Source: Pelagomonas calceolata
Taxonomy: Eukaryota
Direction of reading: 5' to 3'
DNA: 64,000 nt
Assembly (NCBI GenBank): GCA_918797485.1
Contig: CAKKNE010000002.1
Location: 5,642,001 to 5,706,000 of the forward strand
The notes beneath the pieces were generated by a model, which was not told the origin of the DNA, did no database searches, and saw only the letters and a program-made list of their open reading frames with translations. The position numbers and the translations under genes were made by a program. Below, piece by piece: positions 12,146-51,544 of the stretch (the first letter of the stretch is position 1; the number at the start of each line of letters is the position of its first letter).

Positions 12146-14872
12146 TCAGGCGGGGTGGACGACCTCGCCGGGCCCGAGCACGTCCGTGTCCGCGTCGTCG
12201 CCGTCCGTGACCTCGTCCTCGTCGTCGTTGTTGAACAGTTCGTCGAAGGTCAGGTAGTCTTCCATCGAGTCCCTCTGGTGCACGGCAATATCACAATGCG
12301 TGGCGTCGGCCAACACCACCGCGTCGGCCTCGTCCGCGACGTGGTCGATAATCTTGGAATTCAAAAAATCGTTGCGCTTGATCTGCAATTCCACGTCGAA
12401 GGGCACGTCATCTATAAGTAGTCTAATAACTAAAACCACACACGCAAAGAAGCCGCAGCAGACCATGAAGACGCAGTCCAGCTGGTGCTTCGTCGGAGAA
12501 TGCTCGGGCCAGCCGCCGCCCCAGCGCTCCGGCCAGTATTTTGGAATGACCCTGGTACGATATATAATCGACAAAAAGGACGACATGACGCCCGTGTAGT
12601 TCATCAGTTCGAAGATCGATTGATACGTACCGATATCTTCCACCCCATACGGCTGTATGCGTCGATACGTACATAAATATTTGTAACCATCAGTACGCAT
12701 CTGGAACATGTTGTTCACAAACGCCATCAAAGGCGCGCCCGGGAACGCCGCCGAAAACAGGGTGATATACCCGTACTGCGTCGCTTCTTGGGTGGTGGCC
12801 TTGATGTTGTCGAGCTGCTCATCGCACTCGACCATCATATAACTATTCTCCGGGACCGACACTTTTTGTTCTTCGCCGTGGGCGTCGATGCCTCCTTCTC
12901 GAGCCATCTTTTTGTATAACTTGAGGTAGGGTAACGCAAACCCGGTCATATTTGTCGATACGATGACTGACGCTAACAGTATAATTAACGACTTCTGTAA
13001 TTTTTCGAACTTATCTTGCTTATGACCCGGCATCTTCATGAAGAAAATGACATAGAACAACGAAAAATAGGAATTGATGAAGTTGAACGCCGTCAGCTTG
13101 GCAATCAACTTATCCGCGTAGACCGTGTCGGTCATCCAGTTCTCCGCGTCCGTGAGTCTTACGGCTATCCTCTCGTACCCCTCCTTAAATAACAAAATAC
13201 CGAAGGAATTCAGCACCGTCGCAATCATGTAGAACTTCTGGTCGAACCCCAAACCTTTGAGGCCGAAATAGAGTTCCGTCCCCTCTTCCGTCTTCATCCA
13301 GACGCAGAGTAGCAGGAACAATAAGTTGACGGCGATGCAGAGGCACGTCACCCAGACGCCGCAGAGCGTCCGCCGTCGCCGCTTGTAGGGCGGGTAGAAG
13401 GCGCCCGGCCGGCCGCTCACGGGGTCGTGCATGTCGTGCAGGCCCTTGAACTGGGGCCGCCGTTGTTCCTTTTCCTCGTAGCCCACCATGCCCCATTCTA
13501 ACGCATAAGTCCTCTCCGTGCGCTTCCAGATCTCCGTATTACAGATCGACCACAAGGCCACGACGGCCGCGTAGATGACGATGGAACCGGAAGCGGTAAT
13601 CTCGTACTTCTCCCGCTCCCCGCTTTTCGCGTGGATGGCCGCCCACCACAACATGACGACAATCCCGAAGACGGCCATCAAGCCATAGCCTTGCGTGATA
13701 TGCGCCTTGAAGGCCATGAGCAGGCCCTGCTTCTCGCCGAAGTATTCTTTGTACGCTTCCAGGGGCATGCGCTGCGGCGGCGTGGCCCACGGGGCTCGAA
13801 CCCAGACGTCAAAAAGGTACTTGCGTTCCGTACGATCATGCATCGCCAACGCGGCTAGCAACGTTTCCCGCGTCGCGCCGTGCTTGCCCTTGGCCACGTG
13901 CTTCTCTATTGGTATATTTGCCCCACCTTTGGATCTATCGTCGTTGAGGCAGCTCCATATTAACTTTAATCTACGCATCGAATTAAATAAAGAGCGCTCG
14001 GACACGCCCCCGTGGTACGCGTGCTCGTGCGTCCTCAAGTAGAGCGGCTCGAGCTCTTCCTTCGTGTCGAACTTGCCGTGGATGTATTCAAAGGCCCGGA
14101 ATCTAGAAAAGGCGTGCGCGCCGTCGGCCGGCGGCGTCCGTTCCGGGATATCCATGGGCGCGATGTGCTGTTCGGGCAATCCTCGTCTGGCCAGTGTTCG
14201 TAACCTAGCTTCATGTAACGGCATCTGGAAGTCGATGTTGTCCGCTTGATTGCGCAACCTTTCGTGCGTCGCGCCCACTCGGACGTAGATCTCGTCCTCC
14301 TGCGTCGATAGGTAGGACGACGTCACGAGCCCGGCGAGTTGGGCCTTCTTCACGAAGACTTCGTGGTTGAAAGGTTTTTTCTTCCGGTGGTGCCGCCAGT
14401 GCGTCTTCCGCGGCGTGAAATCTTTTCTGGGAGGCTCGGCTGCCTCCTCACTTAGTTTCTTTCGATCTTCGTCGGATATGGTCCGAAACACAAAGGTCAT
14501 GTCCCAGTAGATGCGGCAGGGGTCCTCGGCGTCCTTCAAGGCTTCTTCCGCCAAGGATGGGAAGGGTTTGATGTCCGTCGTAGCGACCGTCTTCGGCTTG
14601 GACACGAGGGCCCCCTCCAGTTCGTCGGCGACCTCGTGCAGGCGCTGCGCCAAGCGACTGGGAGACGTATACGTCGGCGACCCGTCCTCGGTCTTCTTCC
14701 ACCACTGCTTCGGACTACCTGAAATGGAGGGCGCGAGCGTCTTGCGCATCTCCTGGTCGAACTCGGCGATGATGTTGTCGATGTCCGCCGGCGACGCCGG
14801 CGTGTGCGTGTAGTCGTAGTCCTCGTCCTCCTCGGACGAGGCGTCCTCGAGGGAGTCGTCGTTGTCGGCCAT
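12146..14872 (-). CDS. Anoctamin/TMEM16 family protein (paralog A)
   Basis: EYFGEK, LTDAENW, FNFINSYFSLFY, QYGYITLFSAAFP and DIG, with multiple TM helices. Likely start MADNDDS at 14872. Confidence 0.9.
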   Translation of the reverse strand: MADNDDSLEDASSEEDEDYDYTHTPASPADIDNIIAEFDQEMRKTLAPSISGSPKQWWKKTEDGSPTYTSPSRLAQRLHEVADELEGALVSKPKTVATTDIKPFPSLAEEALKDAEDPCRIYWDMTFVFRTISDEDRKKLSEEAAEPPRKDFTPRKTHWRHHRKKKPFNHEVFVKKAQLAGLVTSSYLSTQEDEIYVRVGATHERLRNQADNIDFQMPLHEARLRTLARRGLPEQHIAPMDIPERTPPADGAHAFSRFRAFEYIHGKFDTKEELEPLYLRTHEHAYHGGVSERSLFNSMRRLKLIWSCLNDDRSKGGANIPIEKHVAKGKHGATRETLLAALAMHDRTERKYLFDVWVRAPWATPPQRMPLEAYKEYFGEKQGLLMAFKAHITQGYGLMAVFGIVVMLWWAAIHAKSGEREKYEITASGSIVIYAAVVALWSICNTEIWKRTERTYALEWGMVGYEEKEQRRPQFKGLHDMHDPVSGRPGAFYPPYKRRRRTLCGVWVTCLCIAVNLLFLLLCVWMKTEEGTELYFGLKGLGFDQKFYMIATVLNSFGILLFKEGYERIAVRLTDAENWMTDTVYADKLIAKLTAFNFINSYFSLFYVIFFMKMPGHKQDKFEKLQKSLIILLASVIVSTNMTGFALPYLKLYKKMAREGGIDAHGEEQKVSVPENSYMMVECDEQLDNIKATTQEATQYGYITLFSAAFPGAPLMAFVNNMFQMRTDGYKYLCTYRRIQPYGVEDIGTYQSIFELMNYTGVMSSFLSIIYRTRVIPKYWPERWGGGWPEHSPTKHQLDCVFMVCCGFFACVVLVIRLLIDDVPFDVELQIKRNDFLNSKIIDHVADEADAVVLADATHCDIAVHQRDSMEDYLTFDELFNNDDEDEVTDGDDADTDVLGPGEVVHPA

Positions 14873-15351
14873 GGCGGTGAAGCTGTTCCCTACGGTGCTT
14901 GTTAATACGCGGCGCGGGGCAGCCGCGCCCGCGGCGGGTTTCGATCTGTTTGCTGCGGAGGTCGGCCGGCTCCGGCGCGCTGCCCTTTGCAGCACCCGGC
15001 GACGTTCGCTTCTCGGCGGCGCTCCTAGATGTTGCAGCGCCGTGCGGGGCGCTTTTGCGCGAGCGCGGCCTTCCGGTTTGCATGTCCTTTGGCAGATCAT
15101 TAGGAGTCCGGGACCGGGTGGGTCGCCTCCGGGACGTTCCGGGGTGATTTCCTAGCGCGCCGTCGACGCGCGCGCAGGCTGCGAGCTATCTAGACACCGG
15201 GTTTGATCGAATGGAATTAGTCGGTCGGTCGATCGGATCATCGGCGTACGATCATCGCTCGGGGGTGGATACGTGCGTCGGGGCCGTCGACGCGGTGACT
15301 GCGACCGCGACGACCGCGAACGCGACAGCGCCGGCGAGGCGGCGCGAGCGC

Positions 15352-16086
15352 TCACGACGTGGCGCGCCAGTAGTTGAGCACGCGCCACAACACCGGATTG
15401 GGCAGCGTCACGAGCCGGCGAAGACCAGCGTCGCGCGTCTTTGCCCGACCGCGGACGACGAGCGCCCGCAGCACGAACAGGTCGACGTGGGGTCGTCGCA
15501 CGAATGCCTTCCACGACCCCGCGGCCCGGATGCAGTCGAACGTGTCGCGGCAGGCGATCCAATTCTGCTCTTCACAGACCTCGGGCCGGAGCCGCTCGAT
15601 GCGCCACATCCGCATCTCAACGTCCTCCGAGCCGCAGATGCGGTCGACGCGGGCACCGCCCCGAAGCAGGGCCCGGATCACGGCGAGCGCCGGGAACCGC
15701 GAGGGCCGCAGGCTCAGCGCCTCGATGGCGACCATGAGCGGCGTCTTGCTCCCTGCGCCCGCCGCGGTCCGCGCGTTCGGAGCGGCACCACTCGCCAGGA
15801 GCGCCTCGACGAGGTCCAGCGAGAAGGCGCCGCGCGCCCGCGCCGCCGCGTGCAGGGGCGACCCGTATCCGCTAGCCTTTAGCGGATTCGGGTCGGCGCC
15901 CCGCGCGAGGAGTCGTCGCGCCAGCTTTACATGACGTTCGCGGATGAGCGGCGCCGACACCGTTTTGACCAGGAGGCCCGTGAGGAGCTCGCGCCTCTCG
16001 TCGTCGTCGTCTTTCTCATCATGTTCGGCGAGCCAAGCTTCGACGGGAGACAAGGTGAAGACGCGCTCCCTCGGCTGGCGTGACAT
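15352..16086 (-). CDS. Ankyrin-repeat protein
   Basis: LLARGADPN, SPLHAAA, LLASGAAPN, TPLMVA and LLRGGARVD. Confidence 0.75.
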   Translation of the reverse strand: MSRQPRERVFTLSPVEAWLAEHDEKDDDDERRELLTGLLVKTVSAPLIRERHVKLARRLLARGADPNPLKASGYGSPLHAAARARGAFSLDLVEALLASGAAPNARTAAGAGSKTPLMVAIEALSLRPSRFPALAVIRALLRGGARVDRICGSEDVEMRMWRIERLRPEVCEEQNWIACRDTFDCIRAAGSWKAFVRRPHVDLFVLRALVVRGRAKTRDAGLRRLVTLPNPVLWRVLNYWRATS

Positions 16087-16343
16087 CCGCTGGGAGCTCC
16101 CCTCACGGGCGGCGGTTTCGCTGCCAAGATGTTAAGCCCTATCCATTTTGCATCTATGGCGCCCCCGTGGCCGTACCAAAAAGGTTTGCGGCGGCGCGTC
16201 AATGTGTGGGCCCTAAGGCAAGCAACGTAACCTTACACAAGCCCGTGGGCTAGCCGGTAGCGAAGTTGCCTTTTTCGTGGCGATGTTAAGTGGGTCTATC
16301 TCCTAGAGTAAGGCGCCCGGGAGGAAGGAAAGGGAGGCGAGAC

Positions 16344-19064
16344 CTAGGCATCGGCCTTGGGCGAAGCGTCGGGCGGAGCAGCCCGGGGCGAGACGGGCCG
16401 CAAAGGCCGCGGCGAGATTTCTTCGACTTTTCTTACAGCCTCTTCCAATCCTCTTCCAAAGAGCTTGTCGTAGGTCGAGTAGGGCTCCATCGTGTCCCGG
16501 TCTTTCACTTCGACGGCCACCGTCAAAGCCGTCGGCGACAGGGCCGTGTCGGCCTCGTCCGCGACGTGGTCGATGATCTTGGAGTTGAGGAAGTCGTTGC
16601 GCTTGATCTGGAGTTCCACGTCAAACGGCACGTCGTCGATCAGCACCCGCAGCATGAGCATGAACCCGAAGTAGAAGGAGCAGATGACCATGAAGACGAC
16701 GTCCTCCTGGTGCCGCGACGGCTCCGCGCCCCACTTCGCCGGCCAGTAGTTCTTCAGGACGTCCGTGCGGTAGACTATCGCTAGGAACGACGACGCGATG
16801 CCCAGATAGTTCATGAGCTCAAAAATGGACTGGAACGTGCCGATGTCTTCGAACCCGAACGGCTGGATCCTTCGGTACGTACAGAGGTACTTGTAGGCGT
16901 CCATCCTTAATCCGACCAAGTTGTTGATGCACGTCATGAGCGGTGCGAGCGGAAACGCCGCCGAAAATAACGTAACATACCCGTACTGCGTCGCCTCCAT
17001 CGTCGTCGCCTTGATGTTGTCCAGCTGCTCGTCGCATTCGACGAGTAAGTACTCGACGCCGGGCGTCGACATCTCGTTCACGCGCGCGACGCCGTTCTCG
17101 TCCCGCTCCAGGCCGCCCTCCGTCTTCATTTTTACGATGAGCTGGATGTAAGGGACGATAAAATTAGTTATGTTCTGCGCGAAGATCTGGGTAGCTAGCA
17201 AAATCCCCAAATCCTGCTGGAGCTTGCGGAAGGCGCCCATGCGGCACGGGCCCTTGTTTTCTTTCCCCTCATTGCCGAAGGCCCAGCAGTAAAAAAAGAT
17301 CGTAAAAAATAAGGAGAAGTAGCTGTTCACAAAGTTGAAGACTGATAGGCGCGAGATGAGTTTATCCGCATATACAGTGTCGGTCATCCAGTTCTCCGCA
17401 TCGGTTAATTTGACGGCGACTTTTTCATACGCTAATTTGAAGACGATGATGCCGACCGAGTTCACGAGCGCACCGGCGGTCGCGTTCTGCTTCTTGTAGT
17501 AGACGCAGCCGACCAAAAACGCCACGGATAACCCGAGGCAGATTAACGTCACAAGCTTCGCGAACGCGACGCGACACGTCCGTCTATGCGGCGGGAAGAA
17601 CGCGCCCGGCCGTCCGGTCACGGCGTCGTCCATGTCGGGAATGCCCTTGAACTGCGGCCGTCTAGCTTGTTGCGCCTCGAAGCCGACCATGCCCCACTTC
17701 AAAGCTAGTTCGCGCTCCTGCCTTCTCCAGCTCTCCATGCTCAGCACGCTCCACAACCCCACCACGCACGCATAAATGAACACAGACCCATCTCCAGTAA
17801 TGGAACCCGTGTTGGCCCACCACAACATCACGACGATGCCAAACAAAGACATCATGAGGTAGCCCGTCGTGATGTGGGCCTTGAACGCCATGAGCAAGCC
17901 CTGCTTCTCGCCGAAGTATTCCTTGTAGGCCTCGAGCGGCATGCCCTCGAGGTAGCAGTCGCAGCAGAACGGCAGCATGCCCTGCAAATCAATGCGCGAC
18001 GGCAGCGTGAAGATCGACGCGCGGACCCAGTGCTCGTATAAAGCTTTGCGCTCCCGCTGGTTGTGCATCGCCAGGGCGGCTAAGATCTTCTTCTGTTGGA
18101 CGCGCTTCTCGACCGCAACGCCCGCACCTCCCAGCGACGGCTCATCATTAATGCAAGACCACATCAGCTTCAACCGACGCATCGAATTGAACAGCGTCCT
18201 TTCTTGACTGTTGTCTCCCCTAAACCCCGTGTGCTCATGCGTACGTCTATAAAGAGGTGCTAATTCTTCCGACGTGTCGTACTTGCCGTTGATGTGCTGG
18301 TAGGCTCTGAATCTACTAAAAGTCTTCTCGCCGTCCTCGGGAGGCGTCCGTTCGGGAATCTTCATCGGCTCGATTTGATACTGCGGTAATCCGGCCTCGC
18401 AGACTAATCTCAATCGATCCTCATCGAGCGGCGTCGGAAAATTAATGTTGTCCGCCTGGATGCATAACCTCTCGTGCGTCGCCCCGACGCGAACGTAGAT
18501 CTCGTCTTTTTGTATCGATAGATAGGCCGACGTAACGAGCCCGGCCGCCGTGACCTTGCCGATGAAGTCCGTGTGATCAAACTGGTGCTTCTTCTTCTTC
18601 TTCAGTCGTTTTTTGACTGCGGCCTTCATATCGCCCAGTGCTTGTTGGAAGTCGCTCTTCGGCTCCTCAGCGTCGTCCTTCTTCTCCTTCTTCACGGGGA
18701 AGACGAAGGTCATGTCCCAGTAGATGCGGGTGGGGTCCTCGGGGTCCTTCTGTTGCTCTTGCGCTAAGGGCGGGTAGGACGCGCGTTTTGGCGACGGGGG
18801 AATGGACTTGATCTTCTGGGCGTGCTTCGCGAGCTTCCAGAAGTCGGGCTTCGTGCCTCGTACGGACGAGACCGGTTCGACGGGCGGCGGCGGCGGCTCG
18901 TCGGCTTTCTTGCCAAAGGTGACCAAAGCTGCCGCCTTGCGCCAGCGCCACCAGCCCGGCTGTTCATTTTGTGCGGCCTCGAGGGCGTCGGCCGCCGCTT
19001 CCAACTGCGTGTCCTCCTCGGTGGCCTCCTCGAAGGCGTTCTCTCCCGTTTGTTCGTCGGCCAT
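16344..19064 (-). CDS. Anoctamin/TMEM16 family protein (paralog B)
   Basis: Same anoctamin motifs, with long blocks identical to paralog A (MPLEAYKEYFGEKQGLLMAFKAHIT; LIDDVPFDVELQIKRNDFLNSKIIDHVADEAD). Confidence 0.9.
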   Translation of the reverse strand: MADEQTGENAFEEATEEDTQLEAAADALEAAQNEQPGWWRWRKAAALVTFGKKADEPPPPPVEPVSSVRGTKPDFWKLAKHAQKIKSIPPSPKRASYPPLAQEQQKDPEDPTRIYWDMTFVFPVKKEKKDDAEEPKSDFQQALGDMKAAVKKRLKKKKKHQFDHTDFIGKVTAAGLVTSAYLSIQKDEIYVRVGATHERLCIQADNINFPTPLDEDRLRLVCEAGLPQYQIEPMKIPERTPPEDGEKTFSRFRAYQHINGKYDTSEELAPLYRRTHEHTGFRGDNSQERTLFNSMRRLKLMWSCINDEPSLGGAGVAVEKRVQQKKILAALAMHNQRERKALYEHWVRASIFTLPSRIDLQGMLPFCCDCYLEGMPLEAYKEYFGEKQGLLMAFKAHITTGYLMMSLFGIVVMLWWANTGSITGDGSVFIYACVVGLWSVLSMESWRRQERELALKWGMVGFEAQQARRPQFKGIPDMDDAVTGRPGAFFPPHRRTCRVAFAKLVTLICLGLSVAFLVGCVYYKKQNATAGALVNSVGIIVFKLAYEKVAVKLTDAENWMTDTVYADKLISRLSVFNFVNSYFSLFFTIFFYCWAFGNEGKENKGPCRMGAFRKLQQDLGILLATQIFAQNITNFIVPYIQLIVKMKTEGGLERDENGVARVNEMSTPGVEYLLVECDEQLDNIKATTMEATQYGYVTLFSAAFPLAPLMTCINNLVGLRMDAYKYLCTYRRIQPFGFEDIGTFQSIFELMNYLGIASSFLAIVYRTDVLKNYWPAKWGAEPSRHQEDVVFMVICSFYFGFMLMLRVLIDDVPFDVELQIKRNDFLNSKIIDHVADEADTALSPTALTVAVEVKDRDTMEPYSTYDKLFGRGLEEAVRKVEEISPRPLRPVSPRAAPPDASPKADA

Positions 19065-19408
19065 GCTTGCTATGCTAGGCTGCCCTGGCTCGATCTTATT
19101 TGTAGGGGGCTGCCCTTGTCTCGGCTGCCGCGGCTAGCGAGTGCGCGTCGTTGGCGTGATGTCTCGCGGTGCGCTGCGTCCTGTAGCCGTCGGCGACGTG
19201 TGGTAATTGTTGTGGGTGTGCGAGCCAAACTTTGGGAGGACGTGCGGGTTGTAAAATCCAGCGGACGTTTTTTCGGCTCGTTCGTACACCTCTGGACCGA
19301 TCCGGAGACGCCTGGACTGCTAAGCCGAGGCCGCCGTCCGACGTCCGGCCGGCAGGCGTCCTCCAAAATTGGCCGCGCCGCTGCGTTTTGCGCGAGGACA
19401 TCTCAAGG

Positions 19409-47479: not shown

Positions 47480-48259
47480 CTAGCAGCTATCGTCGTGGTA
47501 CATCCAGCCCTCCTGCGGCTTGCCCGGCGCGGACGCGGCGTGCACCGCGTTGTCCTGCGGGATGCCCTTCGTCTTCGCGGACGAGAGCATCGAGAGGATG
47601 GATAAGGAGAGCTGCGCCACGGTGATCGTCGGCCGCCAGCCGTTGCCTAGGAGGTTCAGGCAGATGTCACCGTTCGTGTAGACGTGCGGGTGCCGCGGCG
47701 TCGGCTCCAGGAAATAACAACTCGGCGGGCTCGTCGGGTAGTCCGCGGGGAAACTCACGCGCAGCTTGTACTTTTCGCCAGCGAAAATAGTACCTTCCGC
47801 GCCCGTCATCGTCACGATCCAGACGTTCAAGTTCTTGCCGACGCTCACCTTGCAGCCGTCGGGCGGATTTTCGACGAAGTCGGTCAGCTCTCTCGAAATT
47901 CGCTGCGCCTGACGCTGGGCCGGGCTCGCGCGTGCCGGCGAGCGTCGCTTCTTCTTCGCTGCTACCTTTTTCTTCGTTGCAGGCGCGGTGTCCTCGTCTC
48001 CTCCGTCTTTGCCGAAGCCGAGCAGCCGCAACGTCATGCGCACCGTTTTGCGGATCACGCCAAAGAGGCGGGTCGCGAGGCTCCCGCCCCCACCGCCGTC
48101 GAGCAGTCCCGCCTTGGCCTCCGGCGCGAGCGATGTGGCGTTGGCGCCGCCGGAGACGCGTAGCGCCCTCGTGTGCATGGCACGGCGTGCTGGCGCGACG
48201 GCGACGGCGGTAGCCAAGATGGTGGCGAGTAGTGCGCCCGAGTGTCGTATGCGCTGCAT
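47480..48259 (-). CDS. UBE2W-like ubiquitin-conjugating enzyme with an N-terminal signal/transit-like extension
   Basis: HPHVYTNGDICL, SILSMLSS and the terminal W.YHDD.C are typical of UBE2W. First ATG at 48259. Confidence 0.8.
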   Translation of the reverse strand: MQRIRHSGALLATILATAVAVAPARRAMHTRALRVSGGANATSLAPEAKAGLLDGGGGGSLATRLFGVIRKTVRMTLRLLGFGKDGGDEDTAPATKKKVAAKKKRRSPARASPAQRQAQRISRELTDFVENPPDGCKVSVGKNLNVWIVTMTGAEGTIFAGEKYKLRVSFPADYPTSPPSCYFLEPTPRHPHVYTNGDICLNLLGNGWRPTITVAQLSLSILSMLSSAKTKGIPQDNAVHAASAPGKPQEGWMYHDDSC

Positions 48260-48431
48260 TCTGTGTCTGGACCTTGGAGTTGAGAGACACGCGGCCGAGT
48301 TGCAGGCAAGCGATTGGCGCTCAGTGGTGACAGCTCGCGGCGATTTTTTCGGCGATTTGCTGCGCTGAGTCAAGCCGGGCGTCTGACAGGGGATTTGGCA
48401 AGTTGAGGTGAAACTTGGCGTTTTTTGTTGG

Positions 48432-48459
48432 ATTTGACCCGGCGACTCGAGGGTCAAAT
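48432..48459. promoter_or_regulatory. Palindromic element upstream of the permuted tRNA
   Basis: ATTTGACCC-GGCGACTCGA-GGGTCAAAT, a perfect 9-bp inverted repeat. A related element lies at 49217-49239. Confidence 0.35.
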
Positions 48460-48534
48460 AAAAAAAAGAGGGTCATGAAAACGACGAATTCATAACACAA
48501 GCTTCGGCCAGCGGTAGCAGAGATGAACGCAGAA

Positions 48535-48687
48535 ATCGTGACCGGTATTAATTACCGGAGGCCTTGGTCGTGGGTTCGATCCCCAACGTTACGTAACGTG
48601 GATACACATCGGGTGCTTTACTGCCCGGTTACGTTTGCCCAAAAACGACAAACACCATTGCTCAGTCGGTAGAGCGCACGACTCTTA
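48535..48687 (+). tRNA. trnK-CUU: tRNA-Lys(CUU), circularly permuted (break 37/38) with three non-canonical introns
   Basis: Genomic order: nt38-43 at 48535-40; intron 48541-64; nt44-63 at 48565-84; intron 48585-605; nt64-73 at 48606-15; 7-nt linker 48616-22; nt1-9 at 48623-31; intron 48632-59; nt10-37 at 48660-87. Mature sequence GCCCGGTTAGCTCAGTCGGTAGAGCGCACGACTCTTAATCGTGTGGTCGTGGGTTCGATCCCCACATCGGGTG (73 nt) forms all four stems. Confidence 0.88.
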
Positions 48688-48698
48688 CTACGCGTTCA

Positions 48699-48717
48699 TT
48701 TTCTTTTTTTTTTTTTT
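48699..48717 (+). terminator. Pol III oligo-T terminator
   Basis: TTTTC(T)14 directly after the tRNA trailer. Confidence 0.8.
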
Positions 48718-48920
48718 GCCTTTCGTGTATCCTCATATTTTCCACGCTGGCAAATTTTGGGACTCATTGGACAAGGTGGGATCGCGAACGTGACTGTCTC
48801 GTCACGAGGGTGATTTTTTGTTTGGAGTGCTTGAACGGCAAGAGTGCAGCCGAGACGCCTCTCCGAAGCGTAGGAATGGCCCGCTAAACGCACGGTCCCT
48901 AAAAATGCAAACAAGCCCAG

Positions 48921-49200
48921 AAAAAGTGCCGGAACCGACACGGCTGCGAGGTCCGAACGGATTTTCGTAACCGAAGGAACTGAGCTACGAAACCGCCATC
49001 AGAGCTTCGCCCACGGTGTAGTGTGGTCATTAAATGCGCCCAGTGTCCCCAATGCGCAGCACGCGTCGGGAAGGGCTTGAACCGAGGACGGACCGCGGCC
49101 CGCGCCCTCGACAATGCGATCGAAGGTCCGTCTCCCCAGCACCACGGAGAGGTCCAGAGACGCTACAGACGCGTCGCGAGCGCCAAGAAGACTCCGACGG
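48921..49200 (-). ncRNA. Unidentified structured RNA candidate (Pol III-like)
   Basis: Many helices with G-U pairs on the minus strand; B-box GGTTCAAGCCC at 49073-83; GGTTTCGTAGCTCAGTT at 48978-94; terminal hairpin plus T5. Confidence 0.35.
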
Positions 49201-49313: not shown

Positions 49314-51544
49314 ATGGACCTCGAGGACGCGCCACAAGAGGACCCCGATGCAGGGCTCAGCGTCGGCACGGTCCACGCCGCATTTATCCTAAGCGCCGCC
49401 GTCGCCGTGGCGCTAACCTTCGGCAAGGACCTCATCAAAGGCAAGCTCAGCACGAATTCTGACGTGGGCGGCCAGACGCCGCAGTTCAAAGCCTTCCAGC
49501 GGACGTACCTGACCGTCTACCTGCTCATGATGGCGGGCGACTGGCTCCAGGGGCCCTACATGTACGCGCTCTACGACGCCTACGGCTTCAAGCACGAGGA
49601 GATCGCGGCGCTGTTTGTTGCTGGTTTTTTTTCCGCGCGGACGTCAAATTTCAATCTCGTACGTGTGGAGTAGTCTCCGTCGAGAGAGTGTCGCGGCGAT
49701 GGCGTGCGGTTGGGGTGCCCCTCGATGACGGTGGCTCACCCGGTCGCATCGCGCGCCGGGAGGAGCAGAAAACTCACAAACGCCAGTTGGCGCCCGCCGG
49801 CGCGGCGTCGCGGCCGGGGCGCGCGGGATGCGCTCGGTTGCCGAAGGACCGCACGCACCGGGGCACGCGCCGGCGGGGCTCCGAGAGAGCGGGCGCGAGG
49901 CGGAGCGCGCCGAGGCGGGCGCGGCGGGCGCGGCACACACACGCAACACAGAGAACGGCGGTGACAACAAATCGCGGCGACGCGGCGCTGCGCGCGCCGG
50001 GCCTCTGCTGAGAGAACAACGAGAGGCCGCGTCGATGATGCGGAGAACACACACGTTGAGTCGCAAAAGCGACACAAAAAACAAGAGAAAAAACAAAACA
50101 CAGGCTTCGGCTCCTCCATGCTCTTCGGCACGGTCGCCGGCTCGCTCGCCGACACGCTCGGCCGCAAGCGCGGCGCGCTCGCCTACGTCGTCGTCTACGC
50201 GGCGTCGTGCGTGACGAAGCACTGGCGCTCCTACGAGGTCCTCATGTTCGGACGAGTCTTAGGCGGCATCGCCACGTCGCTGCTCTTCTCGGTCTTCGAC
50301 TCGTGGCTCGTGGCCGAGCACGCGAGCCGCGGCTTCGAGCCGGCGTGGCTCTCGACGACGTTTGCGAATGCGCAAGCGGGCAATAGTATCGTCGCGATCC
50401 TCTCGGGTGTATTCGGAGAGTGGATCGCGGGCACGACGCCGATGCGCGTGTTGGTGGCGGGAAGTACCGGAGGCGAGGACGCCGCGCCGGACGGCGCGAT
50501 CATGTGGGGCGGCTACTGCTTACCGTTTGACGCCGCCGCCGTCTTTTTGCTCATCGGCGGCTTCGTGATCATGACGACGTGGAACGAGAACTACGGGGAC
50601 ACGAAGCAGAGTTCGGGCGCGGATGGCCTCCGCGAGTCGCTCACCAAAGGACTTTTACTGTTGGCGAGGGACCGCCGCGTGCTACTCGTGGGCCTGGTCT
50701 GCTCGTGCTTCGAGGCGGCCATGTACGCCTTCGTGTTCGAGTGGACGCCGGCGCTGACGGCGGCGAACGCGCCGCGGTGACGCACGCGGCGTCGCGAGAG
50801 TGCCTTCAAAGTCGGCTCGACGGCCAATGGCGGGTCGCGGCGATGGCGTACTCGTGGATTATTGGTACTCGAGGACGCATCCGTGCATCCGTCGAGAGTA
50901 TCGCGGCGATGCCATGCCACGGTGGGGTAGAAGTACTCGCGATGCCATGCCACGCCGCCACCCCGGAACCCAACGACGCGGACGCGGCGCGCCCAGAGAG
51001 GCCATCGCGTCGCACCCCGGGAAAGGAAAAAAAAAAAACTCACAGAAATAACAAACACAGGCCGCCGTACGGCGAGATCTTCGCGGCGATGATGCTCTGC
51101 TGCGCGGCGGGCACGCGCTTATTCGGCTTCCTCGCGGAGAGCCGGGGCCCGGAGGACTTCGCGCGGCCGCTGTTTGTGGTCGCGTCTCTATTTCTACTGG
51201 CGCCCGTCGTCGCGCCGTCGAACTACGTGCTCGCATTAGTAGCCTTCCTGCTCTTCGAGGGCGTCGTGGGCTGCTACTTCCCAGCGCTGGGCACGCTCAA
51301 GTCCAAGATTGTCCCGGACGCGCAGCGGTCGACGATCTACAACATCTTCCGCGTGCCACTGAACGTCCTCGTGCTGCTCGTATTACTGTCGAAGCTGCCG
51401 ACGCAGACCGTGTTTGCGGTGTCGGCGTTACTATTACTGTCGGCGGCCATATTGCAACACATGCTCTTCGCGGCGATGCGCGGCCACGCGGACGTGCTCG
51501 ACGCGCACGGCGTCGACGCCAAGGACCCGCTCGTGTCGGTGTAG
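49314..51544 (+). CDS. MFSD5: MFSD5-like molybdate-anion/MFS transporter; introns 49624-50103 and 50777-51060
   Basis: FQRTYL.VY...GDWLQGPY.YALY..YG, LFVAG|F.SS, GR.LGGIATSLLFS.F.SW, FVFEWTP and IYNIFRVPLN. Confidence 0.85.

What the first reader, a model, noticed from the sequence alone, without database searches (positions are those of the whole stretch)
48523..48717. Circularly permuted tRNA-Lys(CUU) gene split into five exons by three extra introns
Seen: the T-arm (GTGGG TTCGATC CCC) lies upstream of the D-arm and anticodon (GCTCAGTCGGTAGAGCGCACGACTCTTA). Joining 48623-31 + 48660-87 + 48535-40 + 48565-84 + 48606-15 gives a 73-nt cloverleaf. The stems are acceptor GCCCGGT/ATCGGGT (two G-U), D GCTC/GAGC, anticodon CACGA/TCGTG with loop CT-CTT-AA, and T GTGGG/CCCAC; the variable loop is TGGTC and the discriminator G73. 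The 3' and 5' halves are joined by a 7-nt linker. Leader ATGAACGC (48523-30) pairs perfectly with trailer GCGTTCAT (48692-99), closing the 37/38 junction, with C32 facing the -3 G as in the eukaryotic anticodon-intron pair. A T-run terminator follows. Established: permuted tRNAs matured through a circular intermediate are known in Cyanidioschyzon merolae, some prasinophytes, a chlorarachniophyte nucleomorph and Thermofilum pendens. Inference: I know of no such report in stramenopiles. Permutation combined with introns at 9/10, 43/44 and 63/64 implies a structure-driven tRNA splicing system and possibly a hidden tRNA set that standard scans miss.
Basis: partly seen in the sequence, partly recalled or inferred. 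Interest (0 to 1): 0.96.

Follow-up and report, generated by a model that had tools for sequence, protein, structure and literature searches.

The report
Scrambled tRNA gene, re-cut in relative
A marine pelagophyte alga encodes a lysine tRNA back to front in five pieces that are likely spliced together through an RNA circle, and a close relative carries the identical pieces at the same spot but opened at a different point, which suggests such genes can be re-rotated over short evolutionary times.

Summary
Confirmed. The five pieces join into a 73-nt tRNA-Lys(CUU) cloverleaf (ARAGORN). Scans of the raw DNA miss it. Two intact natural tRNA-Lys(CUU) genes match the joined form at 68 and 67 of 73 positions, with no difference at any joint. 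The three inserts share the bulge-helix-bulge (BHB) layout of tRNA splicing substrates. The host is a pelagophyte stramenopile. New here: a syntenic metagenome contig from a close relative (L004) has all 73 exon letters identical, different introns with the same geometry, and a near-identical 7-nt linker. It is permuted at 9/10 instead, with 37/38 seamless. So one locus exists in two rotations, and 9/10 is not among the five junction types in the 2014 review. The 34 permuted genes tabulated there carry at most one intron, and none is from a stramenopile. Not shown: splicing or expression (polyA reads were uninformative), whether an intact copy exists elsewhere in the genome, the direction of the rotation, and a genome-wide hidden tRNA set. 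The rotation rests on one contig. The scan's earlier notes held nothing on this DNA.

The parts
48506..48534 (+). 5' leader. 48523-30 pairs with the trailer; the last 6 nt give the 37/38 splice motif (C32 pairs with -3 G, U33 with -4 A, 3-nt bulge). The whole 29 nt may be a decayed copy of exon 10-37 (weak).
   Evidence: 17-18 of 30 aligned; shuffle p 0.02 at 28-29 nt, 0.11 at 30, 0.19 at 32
48535..48540 (+). Exon, tRNA positions 38-43 (3' strand of the anticodon stem)
48541..48564 (+). 24-nt intron at 43/44; 6-bp outer helix, weak central helix (2 of 4 pairs); the relative's 22-nt intron has 4 of 4
48565..48584 (+). Exon, positions 44-63 (variable loop, T-arm, intact B box)
48585..48605 (+). 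21-nt intron at 63/64; strict helix-bulge-helix with central helix 4 of 4, also 4 of 4 in L004
48606..48615 (+). Exon, positions 64-73 (end of T-stem, acceptor 3' strand, discriminator G73)
48616..48622 (+). 7-nt intervening linker closing the acceptor stem; 6 of 7 identical in L004; predicted RNase P / tRNase Z cut-out
   Evidence: mechanism from PMC3978253 passages
48623..48631 (+). Exon, positions 1-9 (acceptor 5' strand, U8, A9)
48632..48659 (+). 28-nt intron at 9/10; 5-bp outer helix, central helix 3 of 4. In L004 this site is the permutation junction, with the same geometry.
48660..48687 (+). Exon, positions 10-37 (D-arm, anticodon stem 5' strand, anticodon CUU)
48688..48699 (+). 3' trailer; 48692-99 pairs with the leader
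48700..48717 (+). T-run, likely RNA polymerase III terminator; L004 also has a T-run directly after its last exon and trailer
47480..48259 (-). Neighbour: ubiquitin-conjugating enzyme gene, divergent; its mRNA coverage ends about 48424-48446. Synteny anchor.
49314..51544 (+). Neighbour: MFS_5 transporter gene (intron-split; end approximate). Second synteny anchor.

Best explanation
This is a circularly permuted nuclear tRNA-Lys(CUU) gene in five exons, likely functional and likely matured by the tRNA splicing endonuclease through a circular RNA, and its orthologue on a relative's contig carries the same exons opened at 9/10 instead of 37/38. Predicted route (inferred from C. merolae): RNA polymerase III makes one transcript of roughly 180-210 nt ending at the T-run. 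The endonuclease cuts the BHB motifs at 63/64, 9/10 and 43/44 and the ligase reseals them. The leader/trailer motif at 37/38 is cut, probably last, and sealed to give an 80-nt circle. RNase P and tRNase Z remove the 7-nt linker and CCA is added. Cutting at three non-37/38 sites means the enzyme must read local BHB shape rather than only measure from the mature domain (inferred). The two rotations most likely arose by tandem duplication of an already permuted gene and loss of the outer copies. I weakly favour the 9/10 form as older (about 55:45). Re-insertion of a reverse-transcribed circle is the alternative.
For: Shown: cloverleaf and ARAGORN call. Joints match intact genes, 68/73 and 67/73 (56). 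All five inserts (3 window, 2 L004) have the layout 1 nt + outer helix of 5-7 bp + 4-nt central strand + 2 nt in the register fixed by the exon ends; shuffles reach the observed pairing in 0.00015, 0.00055, 0, 0 and 0 of 20,000 trials each. Isolated folds give the textbook motif for 3 of 5 inserts. L004 is syntenic on both sides (UBC side 95% over 333 nt, MFS side 83% over 386 nt) and has 73/73 exon identity, while its introns align at only 9/25 and 13/22 and the upstream spacer at 52/106 (31, 56). Of the first five outer-helix pairs at the three shared sites, 9 of 15 are changed on both sides and 0 are broken (hand count strings). L004's leader and trailer form a 6-bp outer helix and a 3-of-4 central helix at 9/10, with the same unpaired C4 as the window's intron. 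The intron-free linear precursor and the 80-nt circle both fold close to the cloverleaf. AAG is the major lysine codon, 175 against 66 AAA in 6,231 codons of 7 long ORFs. Window arrangement: three DNA runs hold 96-99% of sampled words of the 6-kb region, two of them flagged as possible sources; reads in run X24 run unbroken over about 48505-48689 at depth 2-4.
Against: No spliced, circular or mature RNA was seen. Four polyA runs of one sample gave no joints, and the few reads on the gene have the orientation of the neighbouring antisense mRNA (18); that library type is not expected to hold tRNA. The window's 43/44 central helix is only 2 of 4, and its isolated fold takes another register. Loosely defined BHB-like hairpins are common in this GC-rich DNA (1,337 and 1,339 per strand; 12 clusters of three or more before T-runs), so geometry counts only because the exon ends fix the register. 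No clear TATA box upstream. An intact Lys-CUU gene elsewhere cannot be excluded. The relative is close (2/150 and 13/114 nt differences in flanking coding DNA), so 73/73 alone is moderate evidence (p 0.02 if exons drifted at 5%, 0.0005 at 10%). The rotation rests on one 1,256-nt metagenome contig. Hints on direction are weak and post hoc (p 0.02-0.19).
Confidence: 0.88

Rival explanations
1. The gene is a non-functional relic or is only partly processed, and an intact tRNA-Lys(CUU) elsewhere supplies translation.
For: No RNA evidence; weak 43/44 central helix; genome not available to count copies.
Against: 73/73 exon identity while introns and flanks turn over; 9 of 15 outer-helix pairs changed on both sides and none broken; terminator and closing helix intact in both rotations (31, 56).
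Confidence: 0.06
2. The window's gene is real, but the 9/10-permuted form in L004 is a metagenome mis-assembly, so there is no re-rotation.
For: One short contig, no read support examined, no second example among the 5 loci from the one metagenome scan (23).
Against: Both flanks are syntenic. The leader and trailer pair across the whole gene in exact BHB register at 9/10, and a T-run follows directly. Exons are at most 34 nt long when joined, and the introns are distinct sequences with their own helices. A collapse of repeats would not build these long-range pairings.
Confidence: 0.07
3. The rotation is real but arose through RNA: a circle sealed at 37/38 that still held its introns was reverse-transcribed and recombined into the locus, opening inside the 9/10 intron. 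The window form would then be the older one.
For: L004's 37/38 is seamless, as a spliced circle would give; linker and two intron sites are retained (31); L004's trailer plus leader weakly resemble the window's 9/10 intron (p 0.02-0.19). This type of model is proposed in PMC3978253 section 10.
Against: In C. merolae 37/38 was the last site processed in 3 of 3 multi-site tRNAs studied (PMC3728597), so a circle keeping three introns should be rare. The window's leader aligns weakly to exon 10-37 in register (57), as a duplication from the 9/10 form predicts.
Confidence: 0.35
4. The transcript works unspliced as a tRNA-mimic RNA (Y-RNA-like), not as a tRNA.
For: Intron-less permuted genes L005 and L001 score weakly on Rfam's YrlA model (34 and 24 bits against a cut-off of 69).
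Against: The window locus has no Rfam match. The conserved part is exactly the mature tRNA including its anticodon, while the linear order differs between relatives.
Confidence: 0.01

Closest known systems
Permuted, intron-containing tRNA genes of Cyanidioschyzon merolae (tRNA-Gly(CCC): junction 37/38, 7-nt linker, intron 55/56; PMC3728597, PMC3978253 Table 1)
   Same: 3' half before 5' half, type II junction, 7-nt linker, BHB introns outside 37/38, T-run terminator, no encoded CCA.
   Different: All six intron-bearing permuted genes in that table carry one intron; this has three. C. merolae's three-intron genes are not permuted. Host is a stramenopile, not a red alga. No Lys(CUU) in the table.
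Type II permuted tRNAs of Ostreococcus, Micromonas and the Bigelowiella nucleomorph (PMC3978253 Table 1); Auxenochlorella (PMC12633428 passage)
   Same: Junction at 37/38, short linker, compact algal genome.
   Different: Nearly all intron-less (1 of the 21 green-lineage entries has one intron). All are green-lineage genomes. No orthologue pair with different junctions at one locus was seen in the parts read.
Multi-intron archaeal tRNAs and Thermofilum pendens permuted tRNA-iMet / tRNA-Tyr (PMC3978253 Table 1; PMC8450103 passages)
   Same: BHB motifs at non-canonical positions, up to three introns per gene.
   Different: Archaeal, junction 59/60, CCA encoded, one intron in the permuted genes.
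Non-canonical D-loop and T-loop introns of Chondrus crispus and the Guillardia theta nucleomorph (10.1101/2021.12.21.473619; PMC13578239 passages)
   Same: Eukaryotic tRNA introns away from 37/38 with BHB-like folds.
   Different: Chondrus has no permuted genes and fixed sites (20/21, 58/59); here the sites are 9/10, 43/44 and 63/64.

Membership tests
Circularly permuted tRNA genes (Soma 2014, PMC3978253) | 3' half encoded upstream of the 5' half, joined by an intervening sequence of 1-74 nt at the acceptor stem | tested here: met
   7-nt linker at 48616-22
Circularly permuted tRNA genes | Exons rebuild an ordinary cloverleaf with eukaryotic consensus letters and no encoded CCA | tested here: met
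Circularly permuted tRNA genes | Leader and trailer form a BHB or BHB-like motif at the junction | tested here: met
   anticodon stem 5/5, central pairs 3 of 4 including C32 with -3 G, 3-nt bulge, 8-bp closing helix offset from the strict register (relaxed hBH type)
Circularly permuted tRNA genes | T-stretch after the 5' half and none between the halves | tested here: met
Circularly permuted tRNA genes | Upstream TATA-like promoter | tested here: inconclusive
   AT-rich tracts upstream in both rotations, no clear TATA box, judged by eye
Circularly permuted tRNA genes | Circular intermediate and mature, aminoacylated tRNA detected | not testable with these tools
   only polyA raw reads were available; no joints
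BHB-type tRNA introns at non-canonical positions | 4-bp central helix between exon n-5..n-2 and intron -6..-3, 3-nt bulge, outer helix | tested here: met
   63/64 4 of 4; 9/10 3 of 4; 43/44 2 of 4 in the window (relaxed) and 4 of 4 in L004; outer helices 5-7 bp in all
BHB-type tRNA introns at non-canonical positions | Cleavage by the host tRNA splicing endonuclease | not testable with these tools
   enzyme genes not in the window; no genome held
Permuted junction types I-V (20/21, 37/38, 50/51, 59/60, 15/16) | Junction position | tested here: met
   window is type II; L004's 9/10 fits none of the five listed
Y RNA-like tRNA mimics (Rfam RF02553) | Covariance-model score at the family cut-off | tested here: not met
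   no match at the window locus; L005 34 and L001 24 bits against 69

The most novel reading that the evidence does not exclude
Pelagomonas-like picoalgae, among the most abundant open-ocean eukaryotes, run an archaeal-style, shape-reading tRNA splicing system in a stramenopile host nucleus. Their tRNA genes behave as rotatable circles: the same gene is re-opened at different BHB sites (37/38 or a new 9/10 junction) between near-identical lineages, introns and termini interconvert, and much of the nuclear tRNA set is invisible to standard annotation.
Probability: 0.45. Interest if true: 0.92.

Novelty: new variant of a known kind. Interest (0 to 1): 0.84.

Why it matters
It would extend permuted and ectopic-intron nuclear tRNAs beyond red and green algal genomes (and their nucleomorph remnants) to a stramenopile host nucleus, against the ruler model of eukaryotic tRNA splicing. 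With three introns plus permutation it needs four splicing events and two end cuts, more than any permuted gene in the 2014 table. The pair of rotations at one locus is a natural experiment on the open question of how permuted genes arise (ancient or recent; tandem duplication or re-insertion of a circle). It shows the rearrangement is recent at least here, and makes the two mechanisms testable with population genomes of a cultured, abundant alga. It also warns that tRNA counts for these genomes may be wrong.

Tried and rejected
Whole-genome check for an intact Lys-CUU gene and other hidden tRNAs: no genome held. PolyA raw reads (4 runs, one sample; 254 reads laid in all): no joints, no sense-strand precursor; uninformative rather than negative. 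A lay of independent DNA runs on the locus was not obtained, so strain-level confirmation rests. Metagenome pattern scan gave 5 loci: L004 orthologous, L001 and L005 permuted genes of another lineage, L002 and L003 dropped as chance or ordinary bacterial matches. The same pattern in viral contigs: 0. The exon 10-37 pattern gave only uninterrupted genes (2 in prokaryote assemblies, 1 viral; 47, 48, 51). L001's neighbour points to green algae (best named hit Chlamydomonas eustigma, 70%), so L001 and L005 cannot polarise the rotation; L005 is tied to L001 only by similar upstream sequence. Unanchored searches for decayed exon copies in the flanks: 16 tests; lowest 6 of 200 shuffles (10-nt exon, L004 upstream), the other 15 at 23 of 200 or more, not taken as evidence. 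Leader-to-leader and trailer-to-trailer homology between the rotations: p 0.11-0.84, rejected. A BHB-cluster scan for further hidden tRNAs in the window was too unspecific (12 clusters). Relaxed ARAGORN gave 35 low-grade calls, treated as noise. Maruyama 2010 (MBE) is not held, so I could not see which stramenopile genomes it screened; supplements of the reviews and of bioRxiv papers were not read and could list further genes.

Full report
Observation. Joining the five pieces in a script gives 73 nt that ARAGORN draws as tRNA-Lys(ctt). The raw window yields no tRNA by default ARAGORN and no Rfam match at the locus at E<=1. The permuted pattern occurs once in the window and in 0 of 100 shuffles, a lenient control because the pattern came from the locus. 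The joints are confirmed independently by intact genes: a viral-contig tRNA-Lys(CUU) (L008) matches at 68 of 73 and one in a eukaryote-type tRNA cluster (L007) at 67 of 73, with no difference at any joint; the third intact gene fetched, bacterial L006, matches 59 of 73. L007's acceptor also opens with a G-U pair, so that feature is no objection.

Host and setting. The window is gene-dense eukaryotic DNA of about 63% GC. The gene lies between a divergent ubiquitin-conjugating enzyme gene and an MFS_5 transporter gene. The former's best named relatives are Pelagophyceae sp. CCMP2097 and Chrysophaeum taylorii. In a 36-row tree of its core domain (4 short rows dropped; rows were the top 30 hits plus 9 further named hits and the window protein) the window falls with CCMP2097 in a 14-row clade at 99/94 support, inside a 19-row clade with Chrysophaeum at 97/94, apart from other ochrophytes. 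This is a one-gene tree. The GC content matches the 63% published for Pelagomonas calceolata (PMC9481584 passages; 10.1101/2024.10.30.620910 passages); I do not claim the species. UBC mRNA coverage ends near 48424-48446, so the tRNA gene is intergenic.

Splice geometry. A BHB motif predicts, for an intron after exon position n, one bulged first base, an outer helix, then four bases pairing with exon n-5..n-2 and two bulged bases. All three window inserts have an outer helix in exactly that register (5, 6 and 7 bp). The central helix is 4 of 4 at 63/64, 3 of 4 at 9/10 and 2 of 4 at 43/44. Shuffled inserts reach these values in 0, 0.00015 and 0.00055 of 20,000 trials. The 37/38 junction is the relaxed eukaryotic type, with C32 opposite the -3 G and an 8-bp closing helix. 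A caution: loosely defined BHB-like hairpins are common here, so the evidence is the match to exon-fixed registers, not the hairpins as such.

The relative. One scan of metagenome contigs returned 5 loci. L004 is syntenic on both sides and close: 2 of 150 and 13 of 114 nucleotide differences in the two flanking coding starts. All five exons are identical, 73 of 73. Its introns at 43/44 and 63/64 are different sequences (9/25 and 13/22 aligned identity) with 4-of-4 central helices; its linker differs by one letter. But the order is rotated: the gene starts at tRNA position 10 (L004 819, minus strand), runs through 37/38 with no break, and ends with positions 1-9 (704-696), a short trailer and a T-run. 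Its leader and trailer form a 6-bp outer helix and a 3-of-4 central helix at 9/10, the same pattern as the window's 9/10 intron, including the unpaired C4. Across the first five outer-helix pairs at the three shared sites, 9 of 15 are changed on both sides and none is broken (hand count); the 43/44 introns may be independent replacements rather than homologues. So what is an intron in one lineage is the gene's ends in the other. This rests on one contig whose reads I could not examine.

Mechanism. [quoted passage not shown] In C. merolae 37/38 was processed last in the three multi-site tRNAs examined. Stepwise folds agree that removing the inserts leaves a near-cloverleaf in both the linear precursor and the 80-nt circle. 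The A box is split by the 9/10 intron and lies downstream of an intact B box, so normal two-box promotion is unlikely in the window form; L004's rotation keeps most of the A box upstream of the B box (read). All processing steps are inferred. RNA evidence is absent: four polyA runs of one sample laid 254 reads on the 801-nt stretch, nearly all on the UBC transcript, with no joints; the few reads over the gene in X24 are unspliced and have the antisense neighbour's orientation.

Origin of the two rotations. Tandem duplication of a 9/10-permuted gene and loss of the outer copies would fuse trailer and leader into a 9/10 intron and leave a decayed exon 10-37 as the new leader. The window's 28-29 nt leader does align to that exon at 17-18 of 30 (p 0.02, rising to 0.11-0.19 for longer cuts). 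Re-insertion of a reverse-transcribed circle from the 37/38 form would explain L004's seamless 37/38, but needs a circle that kept its introns. Both predict the weak likeness between the window's 9/10 intron and L004's termini (p 0.02-0.19). Direction is unresolved.

Literature. The 2014 review tabulates 34 permuted genes from red and green algae, a nucleomorph and Thermofilum; six carry one intron, none more, none is Lys(CUU), and junctions are 15/16, 20/21, 37/38, 50/51 and 59/60. A 2026 review (PMC13578239, passages) lists the same lineages and has no occurrence of 'pelagophy' or 'Aureococcus'. Searches: 'permuted tRNA' (74 papers, 40 listed); with 'stramenopile' (4 papers); 'permuted' + 'tRNA' + 'pelagophy' (8 papers); Pelagomonas + tRNA + intron (4 papers); and broader sets. 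None listed reports a permuted nuclear tRNA in a stramenopile, judged from listings, abstract starts and the passages read. Two pelagophyte genome papers contain no occurrence of 'tRNA' in the main text. Subscription papers, including Maruyama 2010, supplements and tRNA databases were not seen. The scan's own notes held nothing on this genome or sequence; one note concerns a permuted archaeal initiator tRNA.

Verdict. A real, very probably functional permuted tRNA gene: a new variant of a known kind by host lineage, intron load and, in the relative, a new junction. The pair of rotations makes the origin of permuted genes testable. Interest 0.84.

Noticed in passing
L004:696-819 (minus strand): Orthologous tRNA-Lys(CUU) gene permuted at 9/10 with introns at 43/44 and 63/64; central to the report.
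   Followed up: yes
L005:1062-1160 (minus) and L001:1655-1735: Intron-less tRNA-Lys(CUU) genes permuted at 37/38 with 8-nt linkers (L001 cut by the contig end). L001's neighbour best matches Chlamydomonas eustigma (70%), so probably a green alga; Lys(CUU) is not in the 2014 table. About 130 nt upstream look conserved between the two and have no Rfam match.
   Followed up: partly
window 48978-49003 and 49073-49083, minus strand: tRNA-like fragments facing the Lys gene: a 7-bp acceptor-like hairpin with an 8-nt loop, followed by ten letters matching tRNA positions 8-17, and a B-box-like 11-mer about 70 nt upstream. I could not assemble a cloverleaf and the hairpin is not conserved in L004. Could be a relic of a second permuted gene or chance.
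   Followed up: partly
window 48441-48534 and 48720-49059: The spacers flanking the tRNA gene are far more diverged from L004 (about 50% or unalignable) than the adjacent UTRs (83-95%), a sharp zone of rapid change around the gene.
   Followed up: partly
L007:396-2582: A contig in a bacterial MAG holds 12 tightly clustered tRNA genes with eukaryote-type anticodons (AGC, AAG, AGA, AAT, AGG, AAC) and an intron in tRNA-Tyr; likely eukaryotic or giant-virus contamination.
   Followed up: no
L005:1066-1163, L001:1662-1734: Permuted tRNA genes score on Rfam's bacterial Y-RNA-like model YrlA (E 7e-5 and 0.06); that model may serve as a quick screen for 37/38-permuted tRNAs.
   Followed up: no
window 12146-19133, minus strand: Two tandem anoctamin genes, next to a large UBR-type ubiquitin ligase gene; ordinary.
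   Followed up: no
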